DNA of 64,000 bases from the human T2T-CHM13v2.0 reference genome, Homo sapiens. The notes beneath the pieces were generated by a model. That model was not told the DNA's origin. It worked only from the letters and a program-made list of their open reading frames with translations, and made no database searches. This document shows, in pieces, positions 1,235 through 43,178 of the stretch (position 1 is its first letter; each line of letters begins with the position of its first letter). Position numbers and translations under genes: made by a program. Location of the stretch: assembly GCF_009914755.1 (NCBI RefSeq), contig NC_060948.1. The stretch is one strand, 5' to 3'.

Positions 1235-2650
1235 GACACTGGGTGTCCTCACCAATACTGAGGTGGGCCTTAATATCCAGCCAGATTGCCTTCTGGAAAC
1301 ACACGGAATGTCCTGTTCTGTTTTGCCATCTCTTCACATTTCCTCCCCTGTGAGCCCTGTGTGGTCCTCCAGATTCCCTGTGCGGTGGCCTGCCTTTTTT
1401 GGGGTGGGGAGTTGCTGGGTGAATGAGGATGGCGGAGGGAACCAAGTATGTCAGTGGAGCGTGGTGTCATCCAAACGGTACTTAGCAGGCCTGGGAGAGT
1501 CATTCTGGGAGGACGCAGACCTAGAGAGGCCTCAGGTGGGCATCTGTGTGGAGGGTGAGAGATCCCTGGTTGAGCCCAAACTGAACCCCAGGTAGAAGCA
1601 AGCCTCAGGACAGGGAAGTAGCTAGCAAGGGATGATGAGGGAGCTATCTCTTGACCCTGGCTTCCCACCCATTGACCTTAGCTACTTGTGCCTATTAAGC
1701 AGATTACGGTTCCCCCATCGTGAAATGTGGGTACCACAGTTCCCTGATGGGCATTTCTCCACCAGCCCATGATGGCCTGAGTTTCCTTACTGCAGTCTCC
1801 TCCCTGAGCCTTGGCTTCTCTATGTGTGTCCTAACTCCAGGACCCACAGGCCTGTCAACCCCCAGCCCTGGGCTGCTTCCCTGGCCTCTTCTCTGTTCCC
1901 TCTCTGAGGGCCTAACTCCCTTGGGTAGTGCTGCAGAATATAGAGCCACAGGCCCTGGCTGATGATCTGGTGGACTGGGCAAATTGGTCGTGACAGGTCA
2001 GGTTCTGGTTCAAAGCCAATTCCTCCGATGCCAAGGAATGTCGAAGAAGGTCCTTTGCCATGATGCCCCATAGCTGCCCCACCTCAGCAATCGTGCCGTA
2101 ACCTGGGCCCTCACAGTCAGACAACCAGCTGAAGAAGCTCAGGCAGTGACCTGCGGGAAACTCGGGCTTTCACCTGCATGACCCTAGAACCACTGGACTG
2201 CAGTGGAGCCAGTCGCCCTGTATCCTGGAGGGAGACGAGTCAGGAAGGCGCACGCCAGGCCCAGCTCCCGAGGTACTACCCCCTCTACTCCTCAGGGAGG
2301 ATGCCAACGCAATACTCCTTAGTCATCACTTTGTTTCCGAAGTAAATGTTGTGATGAAAGGCAAACTTCTTCCTACCCCTTGTATTCAGGGTGGCCGAGT
2401 TCCTCCACCTGCCTGTCCAAGAAGGAGAAACAGGGCTGTGAAGGGGCAATTTCATCTAGGTGGGCTGAGGTGGCATTCTAGCCGGGGTGAAGCATGCGTT
2501 TCCCCTTCCCAGCTTTCCCGCTGAGACACACCTGAGCCCCAGAAGGACCTCAACCTGACCAGGACCTTAGCACCCTCCCCCAGACCCAGGCTTTCCATCC
2601 TGACCTGCAAATCCAACATGCAGCTTTGAAGGACTTTCTCATGGTTTCTG
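1235..2650. repeat. Diverged intra-unit direct duplication, paralogous to ~9595-11095
   Basis: Collinear matches include aggtgggccttaat (1261 vs 9622), gtgtggtcctccagattcc (~1358 vs ~9775), ttcaaagccaattcc (2009 vs 10436) and cagacccaggct...cctgacctgcaaatcca (2581 vs 11024). Confidence 0.9.
1880..2650 (-). pseudogene. Second inverted TSPY-family pseudogene fragment (relic B: 3' part of exon 2 and exons 3-5)
   Basis: e2 end ~2650-2605 (EKVLQSCMLDLQ|gtcagg); e3 2408-~2296 (VEELGHP/..FHHNIYFGNKVMTKEYCVGIL); e4 2224-2083 (YRATGSTAVQWF*.../LSFFSWLSDCEGPGYGTIAE|gtgggg); e5 from 1966 (IISQGLWLYILQHYPRE). Stops and frameshifts are present. Confidence 0.85.
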
Positions 2651-4698
2651 AGCTCCTTGCTCTCACCAGAAAGAATCAGAACTTTTAAAGTGTTCTTTAT
2701 GCCAACTTAAATTTTTCATTTTTACTACCTCATCTTTTGGATGAGGCATGTATTTTTAAATTTATTTTCACCCTTATTGTACCTCTATGATAAACTGCTT
2801 GCTTACATTCATACCGTAATTATCTCTCAGGTTACTTGTCTGTTCCTAAAGATTCACTGAAACGAAGAATTCTATATATGCTTGTATCTTTCAGCAACCG
2901 TATGTCAGATAGCACTGCACATTACTGCAGACGTCGCATATACAGGTCCAAAGGTAGAGGAAGAAGAAGAAAGCAAGCGTTAAGCTCTATACATTCCTAA
3001 AAGCATATCAGAAACTCACAAATAACAGTGAAATCAAAGAATGATCACAGCCAATTCCATTACATACCTAGACTGAAATACGAAACTTCAAAGAAAAGAA
3101 ACATTAGAACTTTGGGTTTGTAAAAATTTTCCTATATAGATAAAATTATTGGTAACTGTGTCTCACTAGAAAACGTAAACAAAAGTCCATGTTTTTCATA
3201 TTTGTAAATATACATAGTTTTATTTCCATCAGTTATGACATGCAAGCAAGTAATAAAGTGAAAGTACAATCAAATGATATATGGAACTTCCTCAGTCTTA
3301 AAATATTCCATGGAGACTATCAATTTTATGAAAACTATAAAGAATGCTTCATGAAACTACATTGTACAGTGCCATTTACTATTTTACTGACATTTTAAAT
3401 AATCAACAATTAAAGGGAATACATCAACATTATTTAATACCAATAACGTTATTTTTCTTGAGTAATCCTGTTGAAATTAAGGATTTTAAATAAAACATTA
3501 AAAACAAATTATATTGACTGATTTCAGCTTTGGATGAAATCATACTTGTGTATTTGTAGTAATGCGAAGCATAACTTTCTCCTCACAATTAATCTTTTAT
3601 AACATCGGTGTTATAGTTTTCTCTGACACCAACATTGTGATATCGCACAGGTTTACTGCATGCATGCATTACATGCCTCCAGAGAGTAGGCTTCAAATAT
3701 ATGGAAAAATTATATTTATGAAAAAATTCTAGGAAAGGGAATGGTGAAATGGAAGAGAATTTCTCACTTGCTAACTGTTGGACATGGATTTGTATATATT
3801 TGGATATAGACACATACTGGCACACTGTGAGTTTGCCCATGTATATATACACTTATATGAGAAACCCATAATATATGGGTTGTGTAATCTTTTAATTAAT
3901 CCATAATTGTATGTGTGTGAAATTAGATAAGCGGTTACCTTTTCTTTACTCAATTTGATGGAAAGCCAAAAAACTCTGTCCACCTTCATTTCAATTAATC
4001 CAATACTGTTAACTGCTGGTAGCTTCATTCTCCTTGTTCTCTTACGGCAACCGGAAAGTTAATTCTCGCTCTAATTTGGCTTTCAAGGTGCGATCAACAA
4101 GAGTGTCACCTTGCTGTGGATTGTGACCTCTGACTCCACCTCTGTCTTCCTTTTGCAGTCCTACCTTTGCATAGGTAACAAACTTTGTACATGGTTAAAA
4201 GGATAAAAGTTCAGTGAAATGTCAAGCCATGCTGTGAAATGTTCCATAGTTTCTATATCTCTAATTGTCCTTTGATGTTATAGAGGCAAGAAAAATAATT
4301 CAATCTTTTTCTTAGTATCTAGTCCAATGCACTCTTTCTTCATAATACTGCAAACAAGGCACTGACATGGAAACGTGGCTGGACGTCTCAAAATCTCTTC
4401 TCATTAATTACCATTATGTTAATCACTGTTGCCCACAACTGGAATTGGACTTTGAAATCCCCTGGTGGAAATTGCTATAATGGCTCAAACTACTGATAAG
4501 ACTATCTTTTTTTACCTGAAAATATCTGATGAGCATAGACGTATGCTATATACAGGAAGATATTGTACATTAACAACATACCATCACTGCCACTCAATAA
4601 TAGGTATCCCAAACCTTTGAGCCAAACTGAGCTCGGGTGCTCCCACAAACCAAGCTTTTCCCTCCACAGATTTCTTATGTCAAAAAGCCACAACTCCA

Positions 4699-9172: not shown

Positions 9173-10302
9173 TCCTTGAAAACGAAAGTTCCACAAGGGC
9201 AAAACAAGAAAACAAATTTAACACCCCCCAAAGAAAGTACAAAGAGTAACCTCAAAAGAACCGCAGGGGAAAACAATTCAAAATTTACAAGTATCTACCC
9301 TAAAAGAAGCTGAAAGTCCCTCAAAAACTTTCCAGAGGCCATGTCCTTGTATTACAAAAATGATCATAAAAACTGGCAGGAGTAGACGAATAGAAATGCA
9401 TCTTAAAACTTGCTAAACCCTTCAAGTCTCCCATAAGAATTGTAATGGAAAATGGATCGGTCGGCAGCTTTTTCCATACAATTATGAACAAATTATATTT
9501 CTTCATACATAGATTTGTTTTTTCAATATTCTAAGGAATTAACTTTTATATTAATAGTAGGTGATGTAAGAAAGCAGGCCTTTATCAAGATAACTGACAC
9601 TGGATGTCCATACCATTACTCAGGTGGGCCTTAATTCCCAGCCGGGTTCCCTCCCTGGACACACACTGAAGGTCCCCAGCCATTTGGCAATCTCTTCACA
9701 TTCCCAGCCCTGGAGGTAGCCCTAAAATACATGTACCTGAAGAAAATAAAACATTGCCTCACACTGGAGCCCAGTGTGGTCCTCCAGATTCCGTGTGAGG
9801 TGGACTAACTTATATGGGAAGGCAGGGCAGCGGGAGTGAGGATGGCAGAGAGGATTACACATGTCAAGGCAGCCGGGGTCATGGAAACAAAACATGACTG
9901 GCCTGGGAGAAACACTGTGAAAGGACACAGACCTAGGTGGGCCTCAGGTGGACATCCTCATGGAGAAAAAGGGGGCCCTGGTTGATCTCAAAATGAGCCC
10001 CAGGTGGTAGCAGGTCTTACCGCAGGGCAGGGAGCTGGCGAGTAATGATGAGACAGCTATCCCTTAAGCCCTGCTTGTCACCCACTGACTTTAGCCACAT
10101 ATGCATCATAGTGGCTTAAGGTGCCCCGATCCTGAAATGTGGGTGTTACATGTCCCTGATGGGCCTCTCTCCCCCAACCCACGGATTGCCTGGGATTGCT
10201 CACTGCAGTCTCCTCCCGGATCCTTGGGTTCTCCATGTGGGGCCCAGATCCAGGTCAAAAGGCCTCTCAGTTCCCAGCCCTTCCCAGCCCTAGGCTGCTC
10301 GC

Positions 10303-12570
10303 CTGGCCTCCTCTCTGTTCCGCCTCTAGGGCTGACCCTCTCTCCATGGGATAGAACTGCAATGGATTGAGCCATAGGCCCTGGCTGATGATCTAGGGGA
10401 CTGCAGAAGTGGGTCCAGGACAGTTCAGGTGACAGTTCAAAGCCAATTCCCCAGAGACCAAGGAATGACCAGCTAGGTCCTTTCCCATGATGCCCCACGG
10501 CGAACCCCACCTCAGCAATCCTGCCAAAACCCGGGCAGTCATGTTCAGCCAAACAGCTGAATGAGCTCAGGTAGGAGGTGTACTGCCTGCAGCTGGAGGC
10601 TTGACCTTCGTGATCCCAGAACCGCTGGACTGCAGTGGAATGAGACACCCTGTAGCCTGCAGGGAGAGGAGTCAGGAAGGTTCATGCCAGTCCCACCCTC
10701 CCACACACCAGCTCCCCTACCATGCTGGGAGGCATTCCTTACCGAGGATGCCAACACAGTGCTCCTTCATGATGATTTCACTGTGGAAATAAAGGTTGGG
10801 ATGAAAGGAAATCATCCTGCCACCGGTAACCGGGATGGCTGAGTTCCTCCACCTGCCGGATCAAGGAGAAAGAGGATGGATTCAATGGGACCATCTCAAC
10901 TAGCCGGGCTGAGGTGGCCTACTAGCTGTAGTGAACCATGAGTTTCCCCTTCCCAGCTCTCCCACTGAGACAACCCTGGTCCCCAGGGGGACCTCAAACT
11001 GACTCAGACACTGGACTCCTCCCACAGACCCAGGCTCCCCAGCCTGACCTGCAAATCCATCACGTAGCAAAGCAGGACTTCCGCATGCTTTCCGACCCAC
11101 GCCGACATCTCGTGTGCCAAACAATCTACCTCTGCGCAAGAACTCTCCAGAGGATTGGGTGGGCAAGCCTCGTGACGCCTTGCAATTTCGCAAGAACACA
11201 GACAATGTGGAACAGGGCCATCTCCCAGACATTTGGCCAGTCACCCTTCATTGTTGGCCCTCTATCTCTGTCTGGCGAGGAGGCAACGCCACAACTGTGG
11301 TGGTTTTTGGAGTGGGTGGACCCCGGCCAAGACGGCCTGGGCTGACCAGAGACGGGAGGCAGAAAAAGTGGGCAGGTGGTTGCAGCTGAGGGACGGGAGG
11401 GACCGGGGGTGGTGTGAGGCGGCTGCTTCTCTGAGTTTCTGAGATGCAGGAGGCCTTTGTGTGCTGGGTGCTGGACATGCTCCGCTGATGTCCGGGTGTG
11501 TGGTGTCCTCTTATCCTAGTCTCCCTGAGGGGTGGGCCTGTCCACCTGAGGGAAGCCTTGTAGTTAGAAGCCACAGCAGGGTCGTGCCTGGCGCTCTCCA
11601 AGGGAATTGCGTGGGTCCAGAGGAAGTTATACAGGCTCAGGGCCTACACGCCTTTGAGTGCAGCGCCTGCAGTTGGATGAATGCGCATCTGCGGAGCTGG
11701 TGCCCGCCGTCAGGTGGTCGGCAGCCCCATGCGCCGCGAACCCGTCTTAAGCACCTTGTGTTTCTGGGGTGAGCCTGCTGGAAACAGGCACCGAGAGCAG
11801 GGGTGGTTCAATGGCTGGTAATGGCATACAGATTCCCCGTCCTCCAGGGACGTTCCCAGGGAAACGCGTCCTTCGAATTTGGGCTGTGCGCAAAGGGACC
11901 TTGGCGCCGCGATTCTCCCTTGTCAGTGCTGGCCCTGGCTCCCCTTCCCTACCACGTGCTCCCAGGGCTGCTACAAGCGAGCTGCCCTCACAGCTGCGGG
12001 AACGTGGCCTCGGCTCCCACGCTGTCCCCCATCCCCTGCCTCCTGGCTGACCCCACGTGCCTCCCACCTGGCTCCTCCCCCCAAACAGCCCCCATACCCC
12101 CCGAGGCCCGATGACTATCCCCTGCTGCCCGCCATCCCAAATCGGCAGCCGCAAGGATATGGCTCTGGCTCACAAGGCGGAGATGCTCTGTGGCCTGGGG
12201 CATTCACGGAGCCCAGCTCCAAGTGAAGGACCTCCAGTGAGTCCATTGACGGCCCCGGTGTGCTCGGTCCAGGGCCAGGCTGTGCCCGCTGGCCCTCCTT
12301 CTGCCACCCCACGTCGGGCTCCACCTCAACCACCACCTCCACCTCAGCCATGATGTCTTCCACCTTCAGCACCGCCTCCTCTTCCAAGGCCGCCTCCTTG
12401 CTCTGTACCCCGGCCGTCCTCTCCAGCATTGCCTCCAGCCTGAACACGGTTTTCTCCTGGGTGCTCCCACAGACCCTGGGCCTGCGCAGCCCAGCCCAGC
12501 CCAGCCCATGCCCCGCACCCGTAGGCTCTGGGGGCCCGCTCCCCAGCAGACCCGCTCCCTGCAAGACCCA
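10303..12570 (-). pseudogene. FAM197Y: Inverted, unprocessed TSPY-family pseudogene (relic A, exons 1-5), in the FAM197Y/CYorf16 region
   Basis: Minus-strand exon homologues: e1 ~12570-12161 (VCGSTQEKTVFRLEAM...[17 protein letters not shown]); e2 11125-11049 (IVWH/EMSA...EVLLCYVMDLQ); e3 10852-10743 (VEELSHP/...FHPNLYFHSEIIMKEHCVGIL); e4 10656-10511 (YRVSHSTAVQRFWD...GFGRIAE); e5 10392-10303 (IISQGLWLNPLQFYPM). Frameshifts occur in e1, e2 and e3. The FAM197Y name rests on the known antisense unit of this array; its transcript boundaries cannot be derived here. Confidence 0.85.
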
Positions 12571-14250
12571 CGGGCGTCGCCCTGCTGTGAACCTGGTCCC
12601 ACACCTACGTGGACCCAGGTTTCCTGAGGAGCTCCGCTGGACCCGCAGATCCCGCACTGGCCAAAGGGCTCCGGTCCCCAGCAGGCTCAACTGCGCACAG
12701 GAGCTCGGGAGCCAGAGGCCCCGGCCCTGGGCTTGCAGAGCCCCACCAACAGGCACCGCAACCGCTGCTGCGGGTGCGGGAGCCTCTGGGTCGTCAAGGC
12801 AGCGCACAACAGCGTGTGTGCAGGCCGACAATGGCCAACCCTGGCGGCTGGCCTCTGGTGTGCCCAGGGCATAGGACAAGAGGCCCTTTGGAATGCTCCT
12901 TGGAGTACAGCATCCTCAGGGAGGAAGCATGGTACTCGGAGCCTCTATTTGCCTCGACCTGTGAGAGTGTGTGCCGGGGCTCTGGCCTCTACAGCAGATC
13001 AATTCCACCTCAGCACCGGCAGGCGACTTTCCTCCCACGTGCCCGCCCCGATCACTTCCCCCAGGACACCCCTGCCGCCCTAGCCCCAGCAACCAGAGAG
13101 AGTTCTCTGCATCTGCTGTATTACCTCCGTACCATCTACCTGGCCTGCCTAACGAAGAGAGATGTTTCCTGTGTTCATGACACATAGAGATGTTCATGGC
13201 TTGCCACACTGAGGATGTCAGGGCACAGGGCTGCCATGCCCACAGTTCCAAAGGCCACGCAGCCCGCGTGTGCCCGGATGCCTAGCTACCCGGCACAAGC
13301 TCCAAGGGCTTCTCGGAGGAGGCTTGGGCAGGGAAGGCGGGGGGTGGGGGGGCTGGAGATGCAGGCCCGCCAGTGGCTGTGCCGCCCAGGGAGACGCCCA
13401 CCGCCCTCCCATTGACTGGCCACGACGGGAGGAAGTCGGCCTGGGTGCGGCCCCCCGGCCCTTCGCGCGCAGTCCCTTAGGGGGCGCCTGGAAGCCCGGC
13501 GCATGCGCCCTGAGGGCTCGCTGACCTACCGGGTGCCAGAGAGGCTGCGGCAGGGTTTCTGTGGCGTGGGTCGGGCAGCACAGGCCTTGGTGTGTGCGAG
13601 TGCCAAGGAGGGCACCGCCTTCAGGATGGAGGCTGTACAGGAGGGGGCGGCCGGGGTGGAGAGTGAGCAGGCGGCTTTGGGGGAGGAGGCGGTGCTGCTG
13701 TTGGATGACATAATGGCGGAGGTGGAGGTGGTGGCGGAGGAGGAGGGCCTCGTGGAGCGGCGGGAGGAGGCCCAGCGGGCACAGCAGGCTGTGCCTGGCC
13801 CTGGGCCCATGACCCCAGAGTCTGCACTGGAGGAGCTGCTGGCCGTTCAGGTGGAGCTGGAGCCGGTTAATGCCCAAGCCAGGAAGGCCTTTTCTCGGCA
13901 GCGGGAAAAGATGGAGCGGAGGCGCAAGCCCCAGCTAGACCGCAGAGGCGCCGTCATCCAGAGCGTCCCTGGCTTCTGGGCCAATGTTGTATCCTTCTCA
14001 GTGTTTCTTCGGCCTTTCTAGTGGAGAGGTGCTCTCGGGGAAGTGTAAGTGACCGATGGGCAGCTCGGCGTCGATGTGACTCTTTGGGGAACAAAGGGGA
14101 GTTGCCACGGACCAGTGTGGCTGTGGAAAGCCGGAGCAGGCGTGGGTACTATTGTCCTGCATGCGGCAGAGAAACCCTTGGTGATGCCGAGCAGCAGACG
14201 TTTGGGGCATCTTTTTGAAGAGCAGAAGCGAGTTCAGAGCGGAAGAGGTT
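11600..14250. promoter_or_regulatory. CpG island spanning relic A exon 1, the TSPY promoter and TSPY exon 1 (also ~31860-34510 and ~52140-54790)
   Basis: Visibly GC- and CpG-rich against an AT-rich background. Contains a GC box CCGCCC at 13401-13406, an ETS-like GGAAGT near 13431 and no obvious TATA box. Boundaries were estimated by eye. Confidence 0.75.
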
Positions 14251-16065
14251 TTTCAGTGAATGAAGCTATTTTTAAGGGAGTGTGATTGCTGCCCCTTGCT
14301 AGTCCGATCTGGGACTGGGCGTCTTCGGCTATAAGCAGATTCTGCCACTCCTCAGACACCAGCAAGTCTCTGCAAATCGCGCCTCCCCATGTCAGTGCAG
14401 TCAGCCTCAGAATCATACACCCTCTGTGAACACAGGAGGCCTTAGTTTACGGGGAGGGGGAGGCGAAAGGAGATCATACATGGAAGCAGATCTGAGAAAT
14501 CCCCTACCCCAGCCTCTGGGTGCTCTTAGGCCTTCTTCCCTGTTGCTCCTCGCTTTCCCTTCCATCGTGTGTAAAGTCTCTTTGACCTAAATCAGATTGC
14601 AAACCACCCCCAGATGTCAGCCCTGATCACTGACGAAGATGAAGACATGCTGAGCTACATGGTCAGCCTGGAGGTGAGGCCAGGAAGACTGGGGCTAGAG
14701 GGTTTAGCGGGGGAGGGTAAGGGAAATAATTCATTCCTGTAAGCAAGAGTGAGCACCTCACCCGAAAACCTATCTAAGCTTTCTCCACCTTGTCCTGACA
14801 GGTGGAAGAAGAGAAGCATCCTGTTCATCTCTGCAAGATCATGTTGTTCTTTCGGAGTAACCCCTACTTCCAGAATAAAGTGATTACCAAGGAATATCTG
14901 GTGAACATCACAGGTGACAGGTGGCTCCCAGGATGGGTAGTGGAAGGAAGATGGTGGGTGGATCATTGCCAACGGGATCCAGCCCCCTTCCCACAAAAAC
15001 TCCTGTCTCTGTAGAATACAGGGCTTCTCATTCCACTCCAATTGAGTGGTATCCGGATTATGAAGTGGAGGCGTATCGCCGCAGACACCACAACAGCAGC
15101 CTTAACTTCTTCAACTGGTTCTCTGACCACAACTTCGCAGGATCTAACAAGATTGCTGAGGTGAGTCCTCACTGGGAAACATGAGGAATGACCCCGTGTG
15201 TTCCCAGCTGCTTGGGTCACCTTTCTGAGCCCTGATGAGGCCTTTCCCGATTGAGTCCCCTGACAGATCCTATGTAAGGACCTGTGGCGCAATCCCCTGC
15301 AATACTACAAGAGGATGAAGCCACCTGAAGAGGGAACAGAGACGTCAGGTGAGCCGTTAGTTGGCACTGGAGCTGTTTGATGCCCAGTATAAGGGGGTTG
15401 ACACACCTGCCTATTCAGGGAGCCTGGGTGCTCATTTCAGAAATGTAGAAATTGAGGCTCCTTTCGTACATGTAGAAATTCCTTGAGAGGAAGACAGAGA
15501 GTGACAGAATCCAGGACGTTCATGGCATTGGGCTGAAAAGGCACGTTAGAGACTGCACTGCAAAGCGGGTGATAGCTGTGGAGTCTTAAGCCCAGTGAAG
15601 AATCGTCCATTTCCAGAATCAATGAGAAGTAAAGCTGAAAATCATTCAGTTCAGTCTGTGGCACTTGATTCCACGGCTGTCAACCCCACCGGCAGTCATC
15701 CCACCAACCCCATGAGATTGGGCTCCCTGAATGTGCGTCCTGGTCATCCTTGCCCCAAACCACAAAGGACTGTTTAGATTGATGGATTTCCTTAAGCTGT
15801 TGCCCCATCAGACTTGTGTGTGCTTTTAGGGCCCAGTGCATCTTGTTAGCTGACTCCCCTCACAGACAATACTGGGAATGGGGCAGGGATTGCGCAGAAC
15901 AGTTTGTAACACGTGGTAGGAGGAAGTTTAAGGGATCACAAATGGGGAAGGGATATCCTTTTCTCAGCGGGCCCCACAATTGAAACATTTCAAAGTATGG
16001 CTCAGAGAAAATGCGTTTTAACATGAGTTTGTGTTTCTCTAGGGGACTCCCAGTTGTTGAGTTGA
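13503..16065 (+). CDS. TSPY: Testis-specific protein Y-linked (NAP/SET family), copy 1; spliced CDS of 308 aa
   Basis: Exons are 13503-13988, 14596-14673, 14802-14913, 15015-15160, 15267-15348 and 16043-16065 (486+78+112+146+82+23 = 927 nt), all with GT-AG introns. The translation [18 protein letters not shown]...FWANV|IANHPQMS...MVSLE|[10 protein letters not shown]...|[12 protein letters not shown]...KIAE|[14 protein letters not shown]...|GDSQLLS* is recognisably human TSPY. The specific numbered paralogue cannot be assigned. Confidence 0.97.
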
Positions 16066-16235
16066 ATATGATGGAGCATCAGATTTTACCTAATACAGCA
16101 GAACTCCTAAAAAGTTACAGCCATATGCAGGACGGCAGTACTCAGCATGGTCTTATGCACAGGAACTAAAGGAAAAAGAGATCGAGTCACAAAAATTCAG
16201 GAAGAGGGGGTAAATGTGGATTGTATGGAATGAAA

Positions 16236-16241
16236 AATAAA
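16236..16241 (+). terminator. TSPY polyadenylation signal AATAAA with downstream (GT)n element (also 36498-36503 and 56778-56783)
   Basis: AATAAA lies ~170 nt after the stop codon and is followed by a GT-rich tract at ~16255-16320. Confidence 0.85.
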
Positions 16242-16262
16242 CATTCTCAAGGATGTGTGACT

Positions 16263-21450: not shown

Positions 21451-22142
21451 CCGTTTAGACAATGTGCGTGTTTGTGTGCACATGCTCAGGGCCAAGAGAC
21501 ACTGGGTGTCCTCACCAATACTGAGGTGGGCCTTAATATCCAGCCAGATTGCCTTCTGGAAACACACGGAATGTCCTGTTCTGTTTTGCCATCTCTTCAC
21601 ATTTCCTCCCCTGTGAGCCCTGTGTGGTCCTCCAGATTCCCTGTGCGGTGGCCTGCCTTTTTTGGGGTGGGGAGTTGCTGGGTGAATGAGGATGGCGGAG
21701 GGAACCAAGCATGTCAGTGGAGCGTGGTGTCATCCAAACGGTACTTAGCAGGCCTGGGAGAGTCATTCTGGGAGGACGCAGACCTAGAGAGGCCTCAGGT
21801 GGGCATCTGTGTGGAGGGTGAGAGATCCCTGGTTGAGCCCAAACTGAACCCCAGGTAGAAGCAAGCCTCAGGACAGGGAAGTAGCTAGCAAGGGATGATG
21901 AGGCAGCTATCTCTTGACCCTGGCTTCCCACCCATTGACCTTAGCTACTTATGCCTATTAAGCAGATTACGGTTCCCCCATCGTGAAATGTGGGTACCAC
22001 AGTTCCCTGATGGGCATTTCTCCACCAGCCCATGATGGCCTGAGTTTCCTTACTGCAGTCTCCTCCCTGAGCCTTGGCTTCTCTATGTGTGTCCTAACTC
22101 CAGGACCCACAGGCCTGTCAACCCCCAGCCCTGGGCTGCTTC

Positions 22143-22912
22143 CCTGGCCTCTTCTCTGTTCCCTCTCTGAGGGCCTAACTCCCTTGGGTAGTGCTGCAGA
22201 ATATAGAGCCACAGGCCCTGGCTGATGATCTGGTGGACTGGGCAAATTGGTCGTGACAGGTCAGGTTCTGGTTCAAAGCCAATTCCTCCGATGCCAAGGA
22301 ATGTCGAAGAAGGTCCTTTGCCATGATGTCCCATAGCTGTCCCACCTCAGCAATCGTGCCGTAACCTGGGCCCTCACAGTCAGACAACCAGCTGAAGAAG
22401 CTCAGGCAGTGACCTGCGGGAAACTCGGGCTTTCACCTGCATGACCCTAGAACCACTGGACTGCAGTGGAGCCAGTCGCCCTGTATCCTGGAGGGAGACG
22501 AGTCAGGAAGGCGCACGCCAGGCCCAGCTCCCGAGGTACTACCCCCTCTACTCCTCAGGGAGGATGCCAACGCAATACTCCTTAGTCATCACTTTGTTTC
22601 CGAAGTAAATGTTGTGATGAAAGGCAAACTTCTTCCTACCCCTTGTATTCAGGTGGCCGAGTTCCTCCACCTGCCTGTCCAAGAAGGAGAAACAGGGCTG
22701 TGAAGGGGCAATTTCATCTAGGTGGGCTGAGGTGGCACTCTAGCCGGGGTGAAGCATGCGTTTCCCCTTCCCAGCTTTCCCGCTGAGACACACCTGAGCC
22801 CCAGAAGGACCTCAACCTGACCAGGACCTTAGCACCCTCCCCCAGACCCAGGCTTTCCATCCTGACCTGCAAATCCAACATGCAGCTTTGAAGGACTTTC
22901 TCATGGTTTCTG
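22143..22912 (-). pseudogene. TSPY-family relic B, unit 2
   Basis: Copy of 1880-2650 at offset ~+20263. Confidence 0.85.
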
Positions 22913-25900
22913 AGCTCCTTGCTCTCACCAGAAAGAATCAGAACTTTTAAAGTGTTCTTTATGCCAACTTAAATTTTTCATTTTTACTACCTCATGTTTT
23001 GGATGAGGCATGTATTTTTAAATTTATTTTCACCCTTATTGTACCTCTATGATAAACTGCTTGCTTACATTCATACCGTAATTATCTCTCAGGTTACTTG
23101 TCTGTTCCTAAAGATTCACTGAAACGAAGAATTCTATATATGCTTGTATCTTTCAGCAACCGTATGTCAGATAGCACTGCACATTACTGCAGACATCGCA
23201 TATACAGGTCCAAAGGTAGAGGAAGAAGAAGAAAGCAAGCGTTAAACTCTATTCATTCCTAAAAGCATATCAGAAACTCACAAATAACAGTGAAATCAAA
23301 GAATGATCACAGCCAATTCCATTACATACCTAGACTGAAATACGAAACTTCAAAGAAAAGAAACATTAGAACTTTGGGTTTGTAAAAATTTTCCTATATA
23401 GATAAAATTGTTGGTAACTGTGTCTCACTAGAAAACGTAAACAAAAATCCATGTTTTTCATATTTGTAAATATACATAGTTTTATTTCCATCAGTTATGA
23501 CATGCAAGCAAGTAATAAAGTGAAAGTACAATCAAATGATATATGGAACTTCCTCAGTCTTAAAATATTCCGTGGAGACTATCAATTTTATGAAAACTAT
23601 AAAGAATGCTTCATGAAACTACATTGTACAGTGCCATTTACTATTTTACTGACATTTTAAATAATCAACAATTAAAGGGAATACGTCAACATTATTTAAT
23701 ACCAATAACGTTATTTTTCTTGAGTAATCCTGTTGAAATTAAGGATTTTAAATAAAACATTAAAAACAAATTATATTGACTGATTTCAGCTTTGGATGAA
23801 ATCATACTTGTGTATTTGTAGTAATGCGAAGCATAACTTTCTCCTCACAATTAATCTTTTATAACATCGGTGTTATAGTTTTCTCTGACACCAACATTGT
23901 GATATCGCACAGGTTTACTGCATGCATGCATTACATGCCTCCAGAGAGTAGGCTTCAAATATATGGAAAAATTATATTTATGAAAAAATTCTAGGAAAGG
24001 GAATGGTGAAATGGAAGAGAATTTCTCACTTGCTAACTGTTGGACATGGATTTGTATATATTTGGATATAGACACATACTGGCACATTGTGAGTTTGCCC
24101 ATGTATATATACACTTATATGAGAAACCCATAATATATGGGTTGTGTAATCTTTTAATTAATCCATAATTGTATGTGTGTGAAATTAGATAAGCGGTTAC
24201 CTTTTCTTTACTCAATTTGATGGAAAGCCAAAAAACTCTGTCCACCTTCATTTCAATTAATCCAATACTGTTAACTGCTGGTAGCTTCATTCTCCTTGTT
24301 CTCTTACGGCAACCGGAAAGTTAATTCTCGCTCTAATTTGGCTTTCAAGGTGCGATCAACAAGAGTGTCACCTTGCTGTGGATTGTGACCTCTGACTCCA
24401 CCTCTGTCTTCCTTTTGCAGTCCTACCTTTGCATAGGTAACAAACTTTGTACATGGTTAAAAGGATAAAAGTTCAGTGAAATGTCAAGCCATGCTGTGAA
24501 ATGTTCCATAGTTTCTATATCTCTAATTGTCCTTTGATGTTATAGAGGCAAGAAAAATAATTCAATCTTTTTCTTAGTATCTAGTCCAATGCACTCTTTC
24601 TTCATAATACTGCAAACAAGGCACTGACATGGAAACGTGGCTGGACGTCTCAAAATCTCTTCTCATTAATTACCATTATGTTAATCACTGTTGCCCACAA
24701 CTGGAATTGGACTTTGAAATCCCCTGGTGGAAATTGCTATAATGGCTCAAACTACTGGAAAGACTATCTTTTTTTACCTGAAAATATCTGATGAGCATAG
24801 ACGTATGCTATATACAGGAAGATATTGTACATTAACAACATACCATCACTGCCACTCAATAATAGGTATCCCAAACCTTTGAGCCAAACTGAGCTCGGGT
24901 GCTCCCACAAACCAAGCTTTTCCCTCCACAGATTTCTTATGTCAAAAAGCCACAACTCCAGGCCAGGCTTCGTGGCTCTTGTTGTAATTTCTACATTTTG
25001 GGAGGCCGAGGTTGGTGGGTCACTTGAGGTCAGGAGTTGGAGACCAGCATGGGCAACATGGCAAAAAGCTGTCTCTACCAAAAATACAAAAATTAGCCAG
25101 ACCTAGTGGCACTTTCCTGTGGTCCCAGCTACTTGGGAGGCTGAGGTAGGAGAACCACCTGAACATGGGTGGCAGAGATTGTATAGTAAGCCAAGATCAG
25201 ACTACTGCACTCCAGCCTGGATGACACAGCGAGACCATGAAAAAAAAAATAAAGGCAACTCCACTCGTCCACTGGCTTAGGTAAAAAATACTGGAGTTGG
25301 CTGGGCTCGGTGGCTCACACCTGTATTCCCAGCACTTTGGATTTTGGGAAGCTGAGTCGGGCGGGTCACCTGAGATCTGTAGTAGGAGAGCAGCCTGGCC
25401 AACATGGTGAAGCCTGGCTTCTACTAAAAATACAAAACATTAGCTGAGCGTGGTGATGCATGCTTGTAATCCCAGCTACTGCAGAGGCTGAACCTGGGAG
25501 GCGGAGGATGTGTTGAGCTGAGATCCTGCCACTGCGCTCCAGCCTGGTCTACAGAGCGAGAGTACCCTGTGAGAAACAAAGGTGAAGAGAACAAGAAAAA
25601 AAAATGAGAAAAATAAGACCCACTGCAAAAGGTTGCCACAGAAAAGATTAAACATTTCAGCAACTTCTATCTTCTATCATGGAAGCCAAGGTTATTTGGA
25701 CCAAACCTCCTGTCTTAGTTCATTTTCACGCTGCTGAAGAAGAGATACCTGAAACTGGGAATAAAAGGAGGTTTAATTGGACTGACAGTTCCACATGGCT
25801 GTGGAGGCCTCAGAATCATGGTATACGAATAAAGGCACTTCTTACATGGCAATGCCAAGAGAGAATGAGGAAGAACCTGAGGCAGAAACCCCTGAAAAAC

Positions 25901-29434: not shown

Positions 29435-30564
29435 TCCTTGAAAACGAAAGTTCCACAAGGGCAAAACAAGAAAACAAATTTAACACCCCCCAAAGAAAGT
29501 ACAAAGAGTAACCTCAAAAGAACCGCAGGGGAAAACAATTCAAAATTTACAAGTATCTACCCTAAAAGAAGCTGAAAGTCCCTCAAAAACTTTCCAGAGG
29601 CCATGTCCTTGTATTACAAAAATGATCATAAAAACTGGCAGGAGTAGACGAATAGAAATGCATCTTAAAACTTGCTAAACCCTTCAAGTCTCCCATAAGA
29701 ATTGTAATGGAAAATGGATCGGTCGGCAGCTTTTTCCATACAATTATGAACAAATTATATTTCTTCATACATAGATTTGTTTTTTCAATATTCTAAGGAA
29801 TTAACTTTTATATTAATAGTAGGTGATGTAAGAAAGCAGGCCTTTATCAAGATAACTGACACTGGATGTCCATACCATTACTCAGGTGGGCCTTAATTCC
29901 CAGCCGGGTTCCCTCCCTGGACACACACTGAAGGTCCCCAGCCATTTGGCAATCTCTTCACATTCCCAGCCCTGGAGGTAGCCCTAAAATACATGTACCT
30001 GAAGAAAATAAAACATTGCCTCACACTGGAGCCCAGTGTGGTCCTCCAGATTCCGTGTGAGGTGGACTAACTTATATGGGAAGGCAGGGCAGCGGGAGTG
30101 AGGATGGCAGAGAGGATTACACATGTCAAGGCAGCCGGGGTCATGGAAACAAAACATGACTGGCCTGGGAGAAACACTGTGAAAGGACACAGACCTAGGT
30201 GGGCCTCAGGTGGACATCCTCATGGAGAAAAAGGGGGCCCTGGTTGATCTCAAAATGAGCCCCAGGTGGTAGCAGGTCTTACCGCAGGGCAGGGAGCTGG
30301 CGAGTAATGATGAGACAGCTATCCCTTAAGCCCTGCTTGTCACCCACTGACTTTAGCCACATATGCATCATAGTGGCTTAAGGTGCCCCGATCCTGAAAT
30401 GTGGGTGTTACATGTCCCTGATGGGCCTCTCTCCCCCAACCCACGGATTGCCTGGGATTGCTCACTGCAGTCTCCTCCCGGATCCTTGGGTTCTCCATGT
30501 GGGGCCCAGATCCAGGTCAAAAGGCCTCTCAGTTCCCAGCCCTTCCCAGCCCTAGGCTGCTCGC

Positions 30565-32832
30565 CTGGCCTCCTCTCTGTTCCGCCTCTAGGGCTGACCC
30601 TCTCTCCATGGGATAGAACTGCAATGGATTGAGCCATAGGCCCTGGCTGATGATCTAGGGGACTGCAGAAGTGGGTCCAGGACAGTTCAGGTGACAGTTC
30701 AAAGCCAATTCCCCAGAGACCAAGGAATGACCAGCTAGGTCCTTTCCCATGATGCCCCACGGCGAACCCCACCTCAGCAATCCTGCCAAAACCCGGGCAG
30801 TCATGTTCAGCCAAACAGCTGAATGAGCTCAGGTAGGAGGTGTACTGCCTGCAGCTGGAGGCTTGACCTTCGTGATCCCAGAACCGCTGGACTGCAGTGG
30901 AATGAGACACCCTGTAGCCTGCAGGGAGAGGAGTCAGGAAGGTTCATGCCAGTCCCACCCTCCCACACACCAGCTCCCCTACCATGCTGGGAGGCATTCC
31001 TTACCGAGGATGCCAACACAGTGCTCCTTCATGATGATTTCACTGTGGAAATAAAGGTTGGGATGAAAGGAAATCATCCTGCCACCGGTAACCGGGATGG
31101 CTGAGTTCCTCCACCTGCCGGATCAAGGAGAAAGAGGATGGATTCAATGGGACCATCTCAACTAGCCGGGCTGAGGTGGCCTACTAGCTGTAGTGAACCA
31201 TGAGTTTCCCCTTCCCAGCTCTCCCACTGAGACAACCCTGGTCCCCAGGGGGACCTCAAACTGACTCAGACACTGGACTCCTCCCACAGACCCAGGCTCC
31301 CCAGCCTGACCTGCAAATCCATCACGTAGCAAAGCAGGACTTCCGCATGCTTTCCGACCCACGCCGACATCTCGTGTGCCAAACAATCTACCTCTGCGCA
31401 AGAACTCTCCAGAGGATTGGGTGGGCAAGCCTCGTGACGCCTTGCAATTTCGCAAGAACACAGACAATGTGGAACAGGGCCATCTCCCAGACATTTGGCC
31501 AGTCACCCTTCATTGTTGGCCCTCTATCTCTGTCTGGCGAGGAGGCAACGCCACAACTGTGGTGGTTTTTGGAGTGGGTGGACCCCGGCCAAGACGGCCT
31601 GGGCTGACCAGAGACGGGAGGCAGAAAAAGTGGGCAGGTGGTTGCAGCTGAGGGACGGGAGGGACCGGGGGTGGTGTGAGGCGGCTGCTTCTCTGAGTTT
31701 CTGAGATGCAGGAGGCCTTTGTGTGCTGGGTGCTGGACATGCTCCGCTGATGTCCGGGTGTGTGGTGTCCTCTTATCCTAGTCTCCCTGAGGGGTGGGCC
31801 TGTCCACCTGAGGGAAGCCTTGTAGTTAGAAGCCACAGCAGGGTCGTGCCTGGCGCTCTCCAAGGGAATTGCGTGGGTCCAGAGGAAGTTATACAGGCTC
31901 AGGGCCTACACGCCTTTGAGTGCAGCGCCTGCAGTTGGATGAATGCGCATCTGCGGAGCTGGTGCCCGCCGTCAGGTGGTCGGCAGCCCCATGCGCCGCG
32001 AACCCGTCTTAAGCACCTTGTGTTTCTGGGGTGAGCCTGCTGGAAACAGGCACCGAGAGCAGGGGTGGTTCAATGGCTGGTAATGGCATACAGATTCCCC
32101 GTCCTCCAGGGACGTTCCCAGGGAAACGCGTCCTTCGAATTTGGGCTGTGCGCAAAGGGACCTTGGCGCCGCGATTCTCCCTTGTCAGTGCTGGCCCTGG
32201 CTCCCCTTCCCTACCACGTGCTCCCAGGGCTGCTACAAGCGAGCTGCCCTCACAGCTGCGGGAACGTGGCCTCGGCTCCCACGCTGTCCCCCATCCCCTG
32301 CCTCCTGGCTGACCCCACGTGCCTCCCACCTGGCTCCTCCCCCCAAACAGCCCCCATACCCCCCGAGGCCCGATGACTATCCCCTGCTGCCCGCCATCCC
32401 AAATCGGCAGCCGCAAGGATATGGCTCTGGCTCACAAGGCGGAGATGCTCTGTGGCCTGGGGCATTCACGGAGCCCAGCTCCAAGTGAAGGACCTCCAGT
32501 GAGTCCATTGACGGCCCCGGTGTGCTCGGTCCAGGGCCAGGCTGTGCCCGCTGGCCCTCCTTCTGCCACCCCACGTCGGGCTCCACCTCAACCACCACCT
32601 CCACCTCAGCCATGATGTCTTCCACCTTCAGCACCGCCTCCTCTTCCAAGGCCGCCTCCTTGCTCTGTACCCCGGCCGTCCTCTCCAGCATTGCCTCCAG
32701 CCTGAACACGGTTTTCTCCTGGGTGCTCCCACAGACCCTGGGCCTGCGCAGCCCAGCCCAGCCCAGCCCATGCCCCGCACCCGTAGGCTCTGGGGGCCCG
32801 CTCCCCAGCAGACCCGCTCCCTGCAAGACCCA
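30565..32832 (-). pseudogene. FAM197Y: TSPY-family relic A, unit 2
   Basis: Near-identical copy of 10303-12570 at offset +20262 (ORFs 30368..30910 and 32377..33141). Confidence 0.85.
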
Positions 32833-39300: not shown

Positions 39301-42300
39301 CCCACGATCTCAGCCCACTGCAGCCCAGGCACCACACACCCATGTGATCCTGTCAACTCAGACTCTCACACACCTGGCAGTACAGGTGCATGCCACCCCT
39401 CCAAGCTATGTATTAATTAACTAAATACTTACTTTTTGAATGTGGGTCCATGTTGCCCCAGGCTCATCTGGAACTCCTGAGTGCAGGCAATCCTCCCACC
39501 TCAGCTTATCAAAGTGCTGGGATGACAGGTGTGACCCATGGCCCTGCCATGGCTTTGTGTTTTTTGCTTTTTTCTTCCTCCTCCTCACGTCTTGTTTTGA
39601 AACATGCACTGAAGGTTTCAATTCATGGACTATAGTCTCTGTGCCTGGAATTTCTATCTTTCAACTCATCATCAGCATTCATTGGGATTTTCATATATAT
39701 ATACACCTATATAAGAATACCTATGTACACACATATATACGTATATACATGTATATACGTATATATGCACATTTATATACGTATATACATGTATATACGT
39801 ATATATATACATGTACACATATGTATTTATTTCTCAAGTTACGAAACGGCTTGCATTCTTTCCTGTGTCATGAAAAAGACTTTGCTAGAAAAGAAAAGCA
39901 CTGCTTTATAATAAAATATTTTATTTGCATTTATTTTGTTAAGGCATTTTAAAAATTGTATGTTTGTTTAAAAAATGTCATATGAAATGATACATATTTA
40001 CAACTTAAGGCGTGATGTTCAACAGGTCATATACATTATGCATTGGATACATCCAGCCAATCAACATATGTGTGACCTCACATAGTTGTCATTTTTGTTG
40101 TGAAAAAACTTGACCTGCACTGTATTCGAATATTTTTAGAGAAAGAATATGTTACCACTAGTTATAGTGAGCATGCTGAAGAAAATATTTTTAACCTATT
40201 CCTCCTTTATAACTAGAAGTATGAGTTCTTCATCCAGCATCTCGTCAGTGCACCCTCTTCACCGCAGTCATTGGAGTCACTACTTCTGTGAAGTCCGCTT
40301 TTTTGATTTCATATAAGAATGAGATCATGTGCTATTTTCCTTTCTGATACCTGGCTTATGTCACTTAACAGAATGGCATGCACACATTCAGCAGATTCCC
40401 ACACATTCTCACAACTGGCAGGATTTCCTGATTTCTTATTGCAGCGCATATTTCCGTTGCGCATATGCGTTTTTGCCCCATTTTTTAATCCACTTATCAA
40501 TGGAGGGACACTCAGGTTGCTTCCGCATTTTGGCTACAGCAAAAATGTAATGAGTGCAGCAATAATTGCATGGGTGCGCGCACCGCTTCAACATACTGAT
40601 CTGTGTACTGGCGGGCGTGCCCGGGTATTCTGATTTGCTGGATCATATAGTGGGTGGTTCTACTTGTAGATTTCTGAAGGCTGTTTATACTTAAATAAGA
40701 GCCATAAAGCTTCTTTAATGCCAGCACTAATTTACATTCTCCCCAAAAGTGAGCAGGGAATTCGTTTTCTCTGCCTCCTCACCAGAGATTAGGGTTTTCT
40801 TTTCTTTCTTTTTTTTTTTTTGTTTGTTTGTCTTTCGGATAATATGCATTCTGACTGAAGTGAGAAGAAATCTCATTGTGTTTTTGATTTGCATTTTCGT
40901 GATGGATTGGGGATAATGAGGAATTTTTAGTGTGTCTTCTGGGCAACTGTATGTCTCAGTTTCACAAATGAGTCTTCGCAGCCTTCGCCCATTTGTTTTC
41001 ATGCTATTGAGTTGTTGGGAGTTCCTTATGTACTGTGACTATTCCCCCATGAACAGATGTATGGTGATCCAATCATTGCTCCCATCCTGTAGGATGCCCC
41101 TTCTGTATGTTGAGTTTTCTATGGTGTGGTGAAGCACTTTAGTTTGATATGATTCCATTCTCTATTTTTGATGGTGTTTACTGTGTTCTTGCAGTCACTT
41201 TGAGACCATCATTGCACACACGGACGCCATGGAGCTGCTTCCTTGTGATCTCTTCTGCTATTTTTATCGTTTCACATCTGACACTGGAGTTTGGTGATAA
41301 ATAATCCACTTGTAAAATCCTTTGTGTGGCTATTCAGATTTCCCCAACCTAGTTTATAGAAGATACTTGATTTTGCATTGGGCGTTCTTGCTTCTTTGGG
41401 AAAAGGCTGTGAGCTGCAAATGCAGTGACTTAGTTCTGGGCTCCTGTTGTTTTTCCTAAGCTCTAGTCTCTGCTTTTCTGCCAGCGCTATTGTATTTTGG
41501 TACAAAAAGTTTTGTAGTAGTATATCATGAAGTTAGGTAGTGGGGTGGCTCCAGCTTTGTGCTTTTTACTGGATTGCTCTGGGTTTTCAGGATCTTCTGC
41601 CATTTCATAGCAAATTTGGGATTCCCAGATTGTTTTCTAAGAAGAATGTGTCATTGATACTTTTACAGGGGTTGTATAGAATCTGAGGATGACTCAGGTA
41701 GTAGTGATGTCAATGCCGTTTAGACAATGTGCGTGTTTGTGTGCACATGCTCAGGGCCAAGAGACACTGGGTGTCCTCACCAATACTGAGGTGGGCCTTA
41801 ATATCCAGCCAGATTGCCTTCTGGAAACACACGGAATGTCCTGTTCTGTTTTGCCATCTCTTCACATTTCCTCCCCTGTGAGCCCTGTGTGGTCCTCCAG
41901 ATTCCCTGTGCGGTGGCCTGCCTTTTTTGGGGTGGGGAGTTGCTGGGTGAATGAGGATGGCGGAGGGAACCAAGCATGTCAGTGGAGCGTGGTGTCATCC
42001 AAACGGTACTTAGCAGGCCTGGGAGAGTCATTCTGGGAGGACGCAGACCTAGAGAGGCCTCAGGTGGGCATCTGTGTGGAGGGTGAGAGATCCCTGGTTG
42101 AGCCCAAACTGAACCCCAGGTAGAAGCAAGCCTCAGGACAGGGAAGTAGCTAGCAAGGGATGATGAGGCAGCTATCTCTTGACCCTGGCTTCCCACCCAT
42201 TGACCTTAGCTACTTATGCCTATTAAGCAGATTACGGTTCCCCCATCGTGAAATGTGGGTACCACAGTTCCCTGATGGGCATTTCTCCACCAGCCCATGA

Positions 42301-42407
42301 TGGCCTGAGTTTCCTTACTGCAGTCTCCTCCCTGAGCCTTGGCTTCTCTATGTGTGTCCTAACTCCAGGACCCACAGGCCTGTCAACCCCCAGCCCTGGG
42401 CTGCTTC

Positions 42408-43178
42408 CCTGGCCTCTTCTCTGTTCCCTCTCTGAGGGCCTAACTCCCTTGGGTAGTGCTGCAGAATATAGAGCCACAGGCCCTGGCTGATGATCTGGTG
42501 GACTGGGCAAATTGGTCGTGACAGGTCAGGTTCTGGTTCAAAGCCAATTCCTCCGATGCCAAGGAATGTCGAAGAAGGTCCTTTGCCATGATGCCCCATA
42601 GCTGCCCCACCTCAGCAATCGTGCCGTAACCTGGGCCCTCACAGTCAGACAACCAGCTGAAGAAGCTCAGGCAGTGACCTGCGGGAAACTCGGGCTTTCA
42701 CCTGCATGACCCTAGAACCACTGGACTGCAGTGGAGCCAGTCACCCTGTATCCTGGAGGGAGACGAGTCAGGAAGGCGCACGCCAGGCCCAGCTCCCGAG
42801 GTACTACCCCCTCTACTCCTCAGGGAGGATGCCAACGCAATACTCCTTAGTCATCACTTTGTTTCCGAAGTAAATGTTGTGATGAAAGGCAAACTTCTTC
42901 CTACCCCTTGTATTCAGGGTGGCCGAGTTCCTCCACCTGCCTGTCCAAGAAGGAGAAACAGGGCTGTGAAGGGGCAATTTCATCTAGGTGGGCTGAGGTG
43001 GCATTCTAGCCGGGGTGAAGCATGCGTTTCCCCTTCCCAGCTTTCCCGCTGAGACACACCTGAGCCCCAGAAGGACCTCAACCTGACCAGGACCTTAGCG
43101 CCCTCCCCCAGACCCAGGCTTTCCATCCTGACCTGCAAATCCAACATGCAGCTTTGAAGGACTTTCTCATGGTTTCTG
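42408..43178 (-). pseudogene. TSPY-family relic B, unit 3
   Basis: Copy at offset +40528. Confidence 0.85.

What the first reader, a model, noticed from the sequence alone, without database searches (positions are those of the whole stretch)
1235..2650. A second TSPY relic per unit: three TSPY-derived loci per 20.3 kb, with relics A and B forming their own lost subfamily
Seen in sequence: 1235-2650 is a diverged direct duplicate of ~9595-11095 and encodes the exon 2 end and exons 3-5 on the minus strand. A and B share residues absent from TSPY: DLQ|gtcagg, VEEL(S/G)HP, CVGIL, STAVQ and IISQGLWL. Their introns and ~650 bp of 3' flank also align with each other. Inference: a distinct TSPY-like gene diverged from TSPY first, apparently while still coding given the preserved exon sizes and conservative changes, and was then duplicated and inactivated. 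Its protein could be partly reconstructed from the A/B consensus.
Basis: partly seen in the sequence, partly recalled or inferred. Interest (0 to 1): 0.7.

Follow-up and report, generated by a model that had tools for sequence, protein, structure and literature searches.

The report
Fossils of a lost second TSPY
Each repeat of the human Y chromosome's TSPY gene array carries two broken copies of a related gene, and these are likely the remains of a second, ancient TSPY gene that cats, horses, bats, whales and mice-like rodents still have but that monkeys and apes likely lost.

Summary
Observation confirmed: 1235-2651 (A) is a 72%-identical direct duplicate of 9596-11095 (B), both minus-strand TSPY-derived, exons 2-5. 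A and B are not a private pair: the same family occurs at 30 places outside the array, and forms three subclades whose members sit beside TSPY or RBMY copies. All 20 aligned copies share a +1 frameshift in exon 3, and 4 of 4 with exon 1 share a deletion and a dead donor, so the gene likely died once, before A and B split. Exons and introns have since diverged alike. Mammalian TSPY proteins fall into two old types; the relics group with type II (cat, horse, bats, whales, colugo, murids; 100/97), simian TSPY with type I; profile scores and a library-wide search agree, but AU tests do not reject alternatives (p 0.07-0.32). FAM197Y splices at B's exon boundaries. Two TSPY subgroups were proposed from cat (PMC6280758); the human fossils of the second were not found in print in ten searches.

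The parts
1235..2651 (-). Relic A: 5'-truncated unprocessed pseudogene (half of exon 2, exons 3-5, 3' flank), A subclade
2605..2651 (-). A exon 2, 3' half, with GT donor; homology breaks into AT-rich DNA above 2651
2296..2408 (-). A exon 3, 113 nt, carrying the family-wide +1 base near 2378-2381; donor lost
2083..2224 (-). A exon 4, 142 nt, with the TAG shared by the A subclade (2184-2186) and a 4-nt deletion
1881..1966 (-). A exon 5
9596..12501 (-). Relic B: near full-length unprocessed pseudogene, exons 1-5, head-to-head with TSPY; template of FAM197Y / LOC124905637
12161..12501 (-). B exon 1: 5'/middle part 80% like TSPY (likely converted), 76-nt deletion near 12190, donor reads AT instead of GT at 12160
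11049..11125 (-). B exon 2, 77 nt; its donor is the end of LOC124905637 exon 1 (11049)
   Evidence: hub annotation
10743..10852 (-). B exon 3, 110 nt (+1 shared, -3 own); donor used by FAM197Y7 and LOC124905637
10511..10656 (-). B exon 4, 146 nt, open; equals FAM197Y7 exon 2 (30773-30918) one unit on
10303..10392 (-). B exon 5
13489..16253 (+). Active TSPY copy (type I), the third TSPY-derived locus of the unit
   Evidence: hub annotation
21498..22913 (-). Relic A, second unit
29858..32760 (-). Relic B, second unit, under FAM197Y7
41763..43179 (-). Relic A, third unit
50138..53040 (-). Relic B, third unit, under LOC124905632
62042..63458 (-). Relic A, fourth unit

Best explanation
A and B are broken, intron-containing TSPY-derived copies that belong to a Y-wide pseudogene family, and that family is likely the primate remnant of a second ancient TSPY gene (type II), which likely died once and was then copied passively beside TSPY and RBMY. 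Steps: (1, inferred from trees) the boreoeutherian ancestor had two TSPY paralogues, I and II; (2, inferred) in the primate line type II was disabled by a 76-nt exon-1 deletion, loss of the exon-1 donor and a +1 insertion in exon 3 (lesions shown; their timing before the duplications inferred from their being shared); (3, shown) the dead gene now exists as three subclades: B head-to-head with TSPY, A mostly tail-to-tail with TSPY, C head-to-head with RBMY; (4, inferred) the B-TSPY-A block became the 20.3-kb unit and was amplified by unequal exchange because TSPY was, so the relics are passengers; (5, shown) FAM197Y transcripts use B's exon 3 donor and exon 4 splice sites; (6, inferred) the 5' part of exon 1 was homogenised with the neighbouring TSPY by gene conversion across the inverted pair. 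The relics most likely make no functional protein.
For: Tree of 63 rows x 126 columns: 9 relics one clade (100/98) inside a clade with colugo P0096, three murids, marmot and 17 laurasiatherian proteins (100/97); simian, lemur, colugo P0063/P0091, squirrel, pig, bovid, donkey P0009 lie outside it. After dropping 23 long or redundant rows and changing model the relics still join type II (99/94). Profiles trained on non-primate proteins score 20 of 20 relics 8-24 bits higher for type II, while neutrally decayed human TSPY scores 16-26 bits lower on average (1 of 1200 reached +10); with laurasiatherian-only training 20 of 20 stay positive (+1 to +21; decayed control 6 of 900 reached +5). B exon 4 against 1.84 billion proteins: 12 hits, 5 chance frames over relics, 1 unrelated repeat protein, 6 type II TSPYs, 0 type I. 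The 3' end of exon 1, outside the tree, also lacks the proline of most type I proteins. Shared +1 base in 20 of 20 copies (net +1 in 16; four carry a further own indel); exon-1 junction and AT donor in 4 of 4. Exon versus intron K2P 0.225/0.242 over all pairs, 0.305/0.301 for A-B; 0-fold versus intron change matched for base content 0.90 (95% 0.77-1.06). Context: 10 of 11 C copies 11-15 kb head-to-head with an RBM1CTR match, 4 of 4 non-array B copies about 3 kb head-to-head with a TSPY exon-1 match. 16 of 16 primate proteins scored are type I. Two cat subgroups and a multicopy eutherian ancestor with lineage losses were proposed in PMC6280758.
Against: AU tests do not reject relics+simian TSPY (lnL 30.4 lower, p 0.089; 19.0 lower, p 0.072) nor relics+type I (4.8 lower, p 0.32). 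The type II signal comes from exons 4 (20 of 20) and 3 (16 of 20); exon 2 (0 of 20, and simian controls invert) and exon 5 (6 of 20) carry none. Only 9 columns are diagnostic and relics match type II at 3-4, type I at 0-2. Codon-model omega among relics is 0.59-0.60, below 1 (p 2e-5) and below all 50 neutral simulations (0.61-1.09); raw 0-fold sites change 0.82 times as often as introns (p 0.007). I ascribe this to GC decay because it is the same in the stop-bearing A subclade (0.57) and on both sides of the frameshift, but the simulation did not model that bias. Mid exon 1 of B is closer to simian TSPY than to anything else. PMC6280758 groups the cow gene with cat TSPY1a/c, whereas all bovid proteins I retrieved are type I. 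A lacks exon 1, so only the exon-3 lesion ties it to the single death. No DNA of other species could be examined.
Confidence: 0.72

Rival explanations
1. The relics descend from a third, separate TSPY duplicate (an early primate or euarchontoglire offshoot), which looks like type II only through retained ancestral states and long-branch effects.
For: AU tests leave both alternative placements standing (p 0.07-0.32); the relic stem is long (0.29-0.46); the root of TSPY is unstable (treeshrew falls first); mid exon 1 is simian-like.
Against: High branch support in two trees; decayed type I controls do not drift to type II scores; TSPYL outgroups and xenarthran proteins, which should show ancestral states, score -20 to +1, below 19 of 20 relics; library search returns type II only.
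Confidence: 0.16
2. The family stayed coding for a while, or still is, in a shortened form: either from the internal Met in exon 3 (FAM197Y7 mRNA holds a 105-codon frame whose first 73 residues are the C-terminal half of the NAP domain), or by skipping exon 2, where the 76-nt loss and the +1 base would cancel.
For: FAM197Y7 spliced frame is open from the exon-3 Met through exon 4; B has no stop in exons 2-5; omega among relics 0.6; -76 and +1 sum to a multiple of three.
Against: Omega is the same before and after the frameshift (0.62, 0.60) and in the stop-bearing A subclade (0.57); composition-matched ratio 0.90 includes 1; by my reading only B and L051 of 20 copies keep Met, frame and splice sites downstream; the exon-1 donor is AT in 4 of 4; database proteins over B exon 4 are chance frames without a NAP domain.
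Confidence: 0.08
3. One reading: A and B alone form the subfamily; a coding gene was duplicated into A and B, which were then inactivated separately.
For: A and B do have different private lesions (A: truncation, TAG, 4-nt deletion; B: 1-nt loss in exon 2).
Against: 30 further places outside the array; one insertion shared by 20 of 20; A-B exon and intron divergence equal.
Confidence: 0.04

Closest known systems
Cat TSPY1a/c versus TSPY1b subgroups (Brashear et al. 2018, PMC6280758, citing Murphy et al. 2006)
   Same: Two deep TSPY subgroups about 64% alike; TSPY1b groups with dog and human; multicopy eutherian ancestor with lineage-specific losses proposed. Cat Q1WF20 (P0031) is type II in my tree and the best named hit of B exon 4.
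   Different: The paper reports no human remnant of the other subgroup and found no cat orthologue of CYorf16; it groups cow with TSPY1a/c, my bovid proteins are type I. That P0031 is TSPY1a/c is my inference by elimination.
FAM197Y / CYorf16, the antisense transcript of the DYZ5 (TSPY) unit
   Same: FAM197Y7 exons 1-2 coincide with B exon 3 donor and B exon 4 exactly.
   Different: Annotated as a lncRNA family; here it is a spliced transcript of a TSPY-type pseudogene on its own sense strand, not an antisense copy of the active gene. Relic A has no row in the annotation.
Dispersed human TSPY pseudogenes (Rhie et al. 2023 preprint, Extended Data Fig. 6; Xue and Tyler-Smith 2011)
   Same: Most pseudogenes branch apart from the coding copies.
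   Different: The passages I saw do not describe a second paralogue or relics inside each unit. I could not map TSPYnP names to my loci; separate exon-1 matches with an intact 3' end may be the named type I pseudogenes.
Murid Tspy (rat, Mus platythrix functional; mouse Tspy-ps; PMC3954093)
   Same: Three murid proteins score and group as type II, like the relics.
   Different: Treated in that review as orthologous to human TSPY, though rat Tspy is reported in elongated spermatids and human TSPY in spermatogonia to round spermatids. Rat itself was not among my sequences.
TSPYL retrogenes / TSPX (NAP family, PF00956)
   Same: NAP-family ancestry.
   Different: The five intronless TSPYL-type frames form the outgroup (100/99); the relics keep TSPY intron positions. 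TSPYL2/TSPX itself was not retrieved.

Membership tests
TSPY gene family (unprocessed pseudogene) | Homology to TSPY exons with the same intron positions and phases | tested here: met
TSPY gene family (unprocessed pseudogene) | Y linkage | tested here: met
   all 100 listed matches and all 42 are on the Y contig; 25 matches were not listed
TSPY gene family (unprocessed pseudogene) | Disabling lesions | tested here: met
Functional TSPY gene | Intact frame with a whole NAP domain | tested here: not met
   frameshift, exon-1 deletion or loss, donor loss
TSPY type II (cat Q1WF20, donkey P0008, murid Tspy group) | Groups with type II in a protein tree of exons 2-5 | tested here: met
   100/97, 99/94
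TSPY type II (cat Q1WF20, donkey P0008, murid Tspy group) | Other placements statistically rejected | tested here: inconclusive
   AU p 0.089, 0.072, 0.32
TSPY type II (cat Q1WF20, donkey P0008, murid Tspy group) | Profile score above type I, beyond decayed-type-I controls | tested here: met
   20 of 20; signal in exons 3-4 only
TSPY type II (cat Q1WF20, donkey P0008, murid Tspy group) | Intron homology and synteny with type II genes of other mammals | not testable with these tools
   no mammalian genomes other than the window's own were on hand
TSPY type I (simian TSPY) | Groups with simian TSPY in exons 2-5 | tested here: not met
   but mid exon 1 of B is simian-like
TSPYL retrogenes | Intronless, autosomal | tested here: not met
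   introns present, Y-linked

The most novel reading that the evidence does not exclude
The boreoeutherian Y carried a head-to-head pair of TSPY genes whose 5' ends were kept alike by gene conversion while their NAP halves specialised: type I for spermatogonia, type II as a spermatid histone chaperone. Murid rodents kept only type II, so rat and mouse Tspy are paralogues, not orthologues, of human TSPY; simians kept only type I, yet still carry over a hundred fossils of type II in the TSPY and RBMY units, and FAM197Y still splices and may translate a 105-residue piece of it.
Probability: 0.35. Interest if true: 0.78.

Novelty: new member of a known kind. Interest (0 to 1): 0.57.

Why it matters
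It names a primate gene loss that annotation hides, and gives FAM197Y/CYorf16 an origin. It turns the two-subgroup idea from cat into a mammal-wide, testable map: which species keep type I, type II or both. If murid Tspy is type II, the long-noted mismatch between rat and human expression (PMC3954093) has a simple cause, and rodent data should not be read as data on human TSPY. The relics are also neutral markers that date the TSPY unit and the RBMY unit and show that the two amplicon families share a passenger. Practical point: TSPY probes, primers and copy-number or RNA mapping meet two diverged relatives in every unit. The relics themselves are probably inert, which caps the interest.

Tried and rejected
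Neutral simulations with and without CpG excess gave omega 0.81-0.83 (25 runs each), not the observed 0.60; base-content matching, not CpG alone, removed most of the deficit. Search for an intact primate orthologue: a type II query gave 123 proteins (120 listed; only the 7992 best word-sharing candidates scored), B exon 4 gave 7 chance frames and 12 library hits; none is an intact primate type II protein, but absence from protein sets is weak evidence. Pfam finds NAP only weakly in A exon 3 (E 0.003, under the cut-off) and nothing in B exon 4 or in TSPY's own exon 4. TSPYL2/TSPX was not found by the family or protein scans, so TSPYL retrogenes served as outgroup. Rows left out: 12 of 127 core rows for low coverage; 63 of the rest chosen for the first tree, four model tails, the marmot exon 2 and the L040 5' end masked; 7 fetched loci left out of the 20-row alignment as near copies (L035, L037, L038, L041-L044); 5 further places near RBMY and 3 others were not fetched. 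The idea that exon 2 (-1 in B) compensates the exon-3 +1 was rejected: most copies have no such loss and the shifted frame meets a stop. Bhowmick et al. 2007 (recalled as treating TSPY and RBMY pseudogenes), the journal version of Rhie et al., and Kido and Lau 2006 were not held.

Full report
Observation. The window is three 20.3-kb TSPY units. A self-comparison shows 1235-2651 (A) as a direct duplicate of 9596-11095 (B), 72% identical, in every unit. Both lie on the minus strand and carry TSPY exons with TSPY intron positions: A has half of exon 2 and exons 3-5, B has exons 1-5 and faces the active gene head-to-head. Exon sizes are not fully preserved: exon 3 is 113 nt in A and 110 in B against 112.

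A Y-wide family. An exon-5 motif gave 125 matches (0 for the reversed control); the 100 listed are on the Y. Two motifs built to miss the array copies gave 26 and 16 matches, all on the Y. Together these mark 30 places outside the array. I aligned A, B and 18 of these loci. Their DNA tree has three well-supported groups: 7 copies with A, 4 with B, 9 others (C); A and B sit across the deepest split. Group tracks neighbourhood: 10 of 11 C copies lie 11-15 kb head-to-head with an RBM1CTR (RBMY) match, 4 of 4 non-array B copies about 3 kb head-to-head with a TSPY exon-1 match, 4 of 7 A copies tail-to-tail with one (four of these labels rest on BLAST identity). So the B-TSPY-A block exists outside the array too and is older than it (inferred).

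One death. All 20 copies have an extra base at the same place in exon 3; 16 are net +1, four have a further indel of their own. Proteins of other mammals have no gap there, and TSPY-like residues lie in different frames on the two sides, so this is a frameshift. The four copies for which exon 1 was fetched share a junction that removes 76 nt (measured in B: 8 nt where TSPY has 84) and an AT where the donor GT should be. Since then exons and introns have diverged alike (K2P 0.225 and 0.242; A-B 0.305 and 0.301). Against this, a codon model gives omega 0.59 among relics, below 1 (p 2e-5) and below all 50 neutral simulations, and 0-fold sites change 0.82 times as often as introns. The value is the same in the A group, which shares a stop (0.57), and on both sides of the frameshift (0.62, 0.60); G/C sites change about twice as often as A/T sites, and matching for base content gives 0.90 (0.77-1.06). 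I read it as mutation bias, with a small residue unexplained.

Which gene died. A search with a donkey TSPY returned 123 proteins (120 listed). They fall into two types that cut across species: donkey, camel, whales, bats, seals and colugo have both. In a 63-row tree rooted on five human TSPYL-type frames, the nine relics used form one clade (100/98) inside type II (100/97), with colugo P0096, marmot, three murids and 17 laurasiatherian proteins; all simian proteins and the lemur protein are outside. Dropping long branches keeps the grouping (99/94). Profiles built without primates prefer type II for 20 of 20 relics, unlike decayed human TSPY (1 of 1200 controls reached +10); laurasiatherian-only profiles agree (20 of 20 positive, the lowest +1.2) and also place murids, marmot and colugo P0096 in type II. 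B exon 4 run against 1.84 billion proteins found six TSPYs, all type II. Limits: the alignment is 126 columns, the signal lies in exons 3 and 4 only, and AU tests reject neither relics+simians (p 0.089, 0.072) nor relics+type I (p 0.32). No intact primate type II protein turned up (16 of 16 primate proteins scored are type I), which is weak evidence of absence.

Exon 1 is mosaic. In its middle B is 80% like TSPY and 73-76% like two other relics; at its 3' end the order reverses (65% versus 77-84%). Donkey, whale and colugo proteins of the two types also share N-termini within a lineage. Gene conversion between the inner ends of an inverted pair would explain both (inferred; gene order in those species not seen).

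Age. A-B intron distance of 0.30 would be roughly 60-75 million years at a recalled primate Y rate of 2-2.5e-9 per site per year, probably an overestimate for GC-rich DNA. A squirrel monkey gene model (P0006) has an exon 2 that matches B at 17 of 25 residues, better than any TSPY protein (13 of 26); if real, the B group predates the New World monkey split. It is one predicted model.

Transcription. FAM197Y7 exons 31005-31106 and 30773-30918 map to B 10743-10844 and 10511-10656: the exon-3 donor and the whole of exon 4. The spliced RNA holds a 105-codon frame whose first 73 residues are TSPY-type. This is probably the CYorf16 frame mentioned in PMC6280758 (inferred). Nothing here shows that it is translated.

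Literature. PMC6280758 (passages and section 6 read) reports two cat subgroups, 64% alike, and proposes a multicopy eutherian ancestor with lineage losses; it found no cat CYorf16 and groups cow differently from my result. The T2T-Y preprint 10.1101/2022.12.01.518724 (passages) says most TSPY pseudogenes branch apart from coding copies and that units hold five new repeat annotations; its supplements were not seen. PMC3924835 (parts 1-2 of 4) counts five human pseudogenes. PMC3954093 (passages) gives the rat spermatid expression and the mismatch with human. PMC3759724 (passages) lists dog TSPY and TSPY-like. PMC1420679, 10.1101/2024.04.02.587783, 10.64898/2026.03.25.713844, PMC12679747 and PMC13252187 (passages) added nothing on the relics. 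Ten full-text searches found no statement that FAM197Y or the unit's minus-strand relics derive from the second TSPY subgroup; the library lacks most subscription papers, including Skaletsky 2003 and Bhowmick 2007, which I did not see.

Verdict. The feature is real and larger than reported. It is most likely a dead second TSPY paralogue carried as a passenger in TSPY and RBMY units (0.72). The kind (ancient TSPY subgroups, Y pseudogene families) is known; the human member, its single death, the FAM197Y link and the likely paralogy of murid Tspy appear not to be described. Interest 0.57.

Noticed in passing
G000:C23:119249797-119284431: Eight NAP-family pseudogene matches in tandem at about 4.86-kb spacing on the X; the spacing fits the CT47 array (name recalled, not checked).
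   Followed up: no
P0006 (squirrel monkey model), residues about 203-228: Type I gene model whose exon 2 resembles relic B (17 of 25) more than any TSPY; conversion from a relic or a modelling error.
   Followed up: partly
P0040 (grey seal); P0061, P0064, P0071, P0085 (whales): P0040 joins type II exons 2-3 to a type I exon 4; whale type I proteins end with a type II-like exon 5: further signs of exchange between the two types.
   Followed up: no
L055 and L059, exon 5: Both carry a related insertion of about 75 nt in exon 5; source not sought.
   Followed up: no
G000:C24 at 5.96, 6.19, 7.31, 7.34, 8.17, 8.59, 9.86, 9.95, 10.17, 10.39, 22.34 Mb: TSPY exon-1 matches with an intact 3' end outside the array, probably type I pseudogenes; several lie next to relics.
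   Followed up: partly
L049 (G000:C20:33912300-33914900): Intronless TSPYL-type frame open for 452 codons; likely TSPY26P, which PMC12679747 lists as now coding (identity by recalled location).
   Followed up: no
window 33719-36515: TSPY7P is annotated as a pseudogene although the region is 99.8% identical to the coding copy at 13489-16253; the lesion was not sought.
   Followed up: no
window 25507-25566 and 29116-29274: FAM197Y7 ends in two exons unrelated to TSPY; both overlap stretches masked as repeats, so they look exonised from repeats.
   Followed up: no
G000:C24:2606829-2607392: A processed NAP-family pseudogene with many stops on distal Yp.
   Followed up: no
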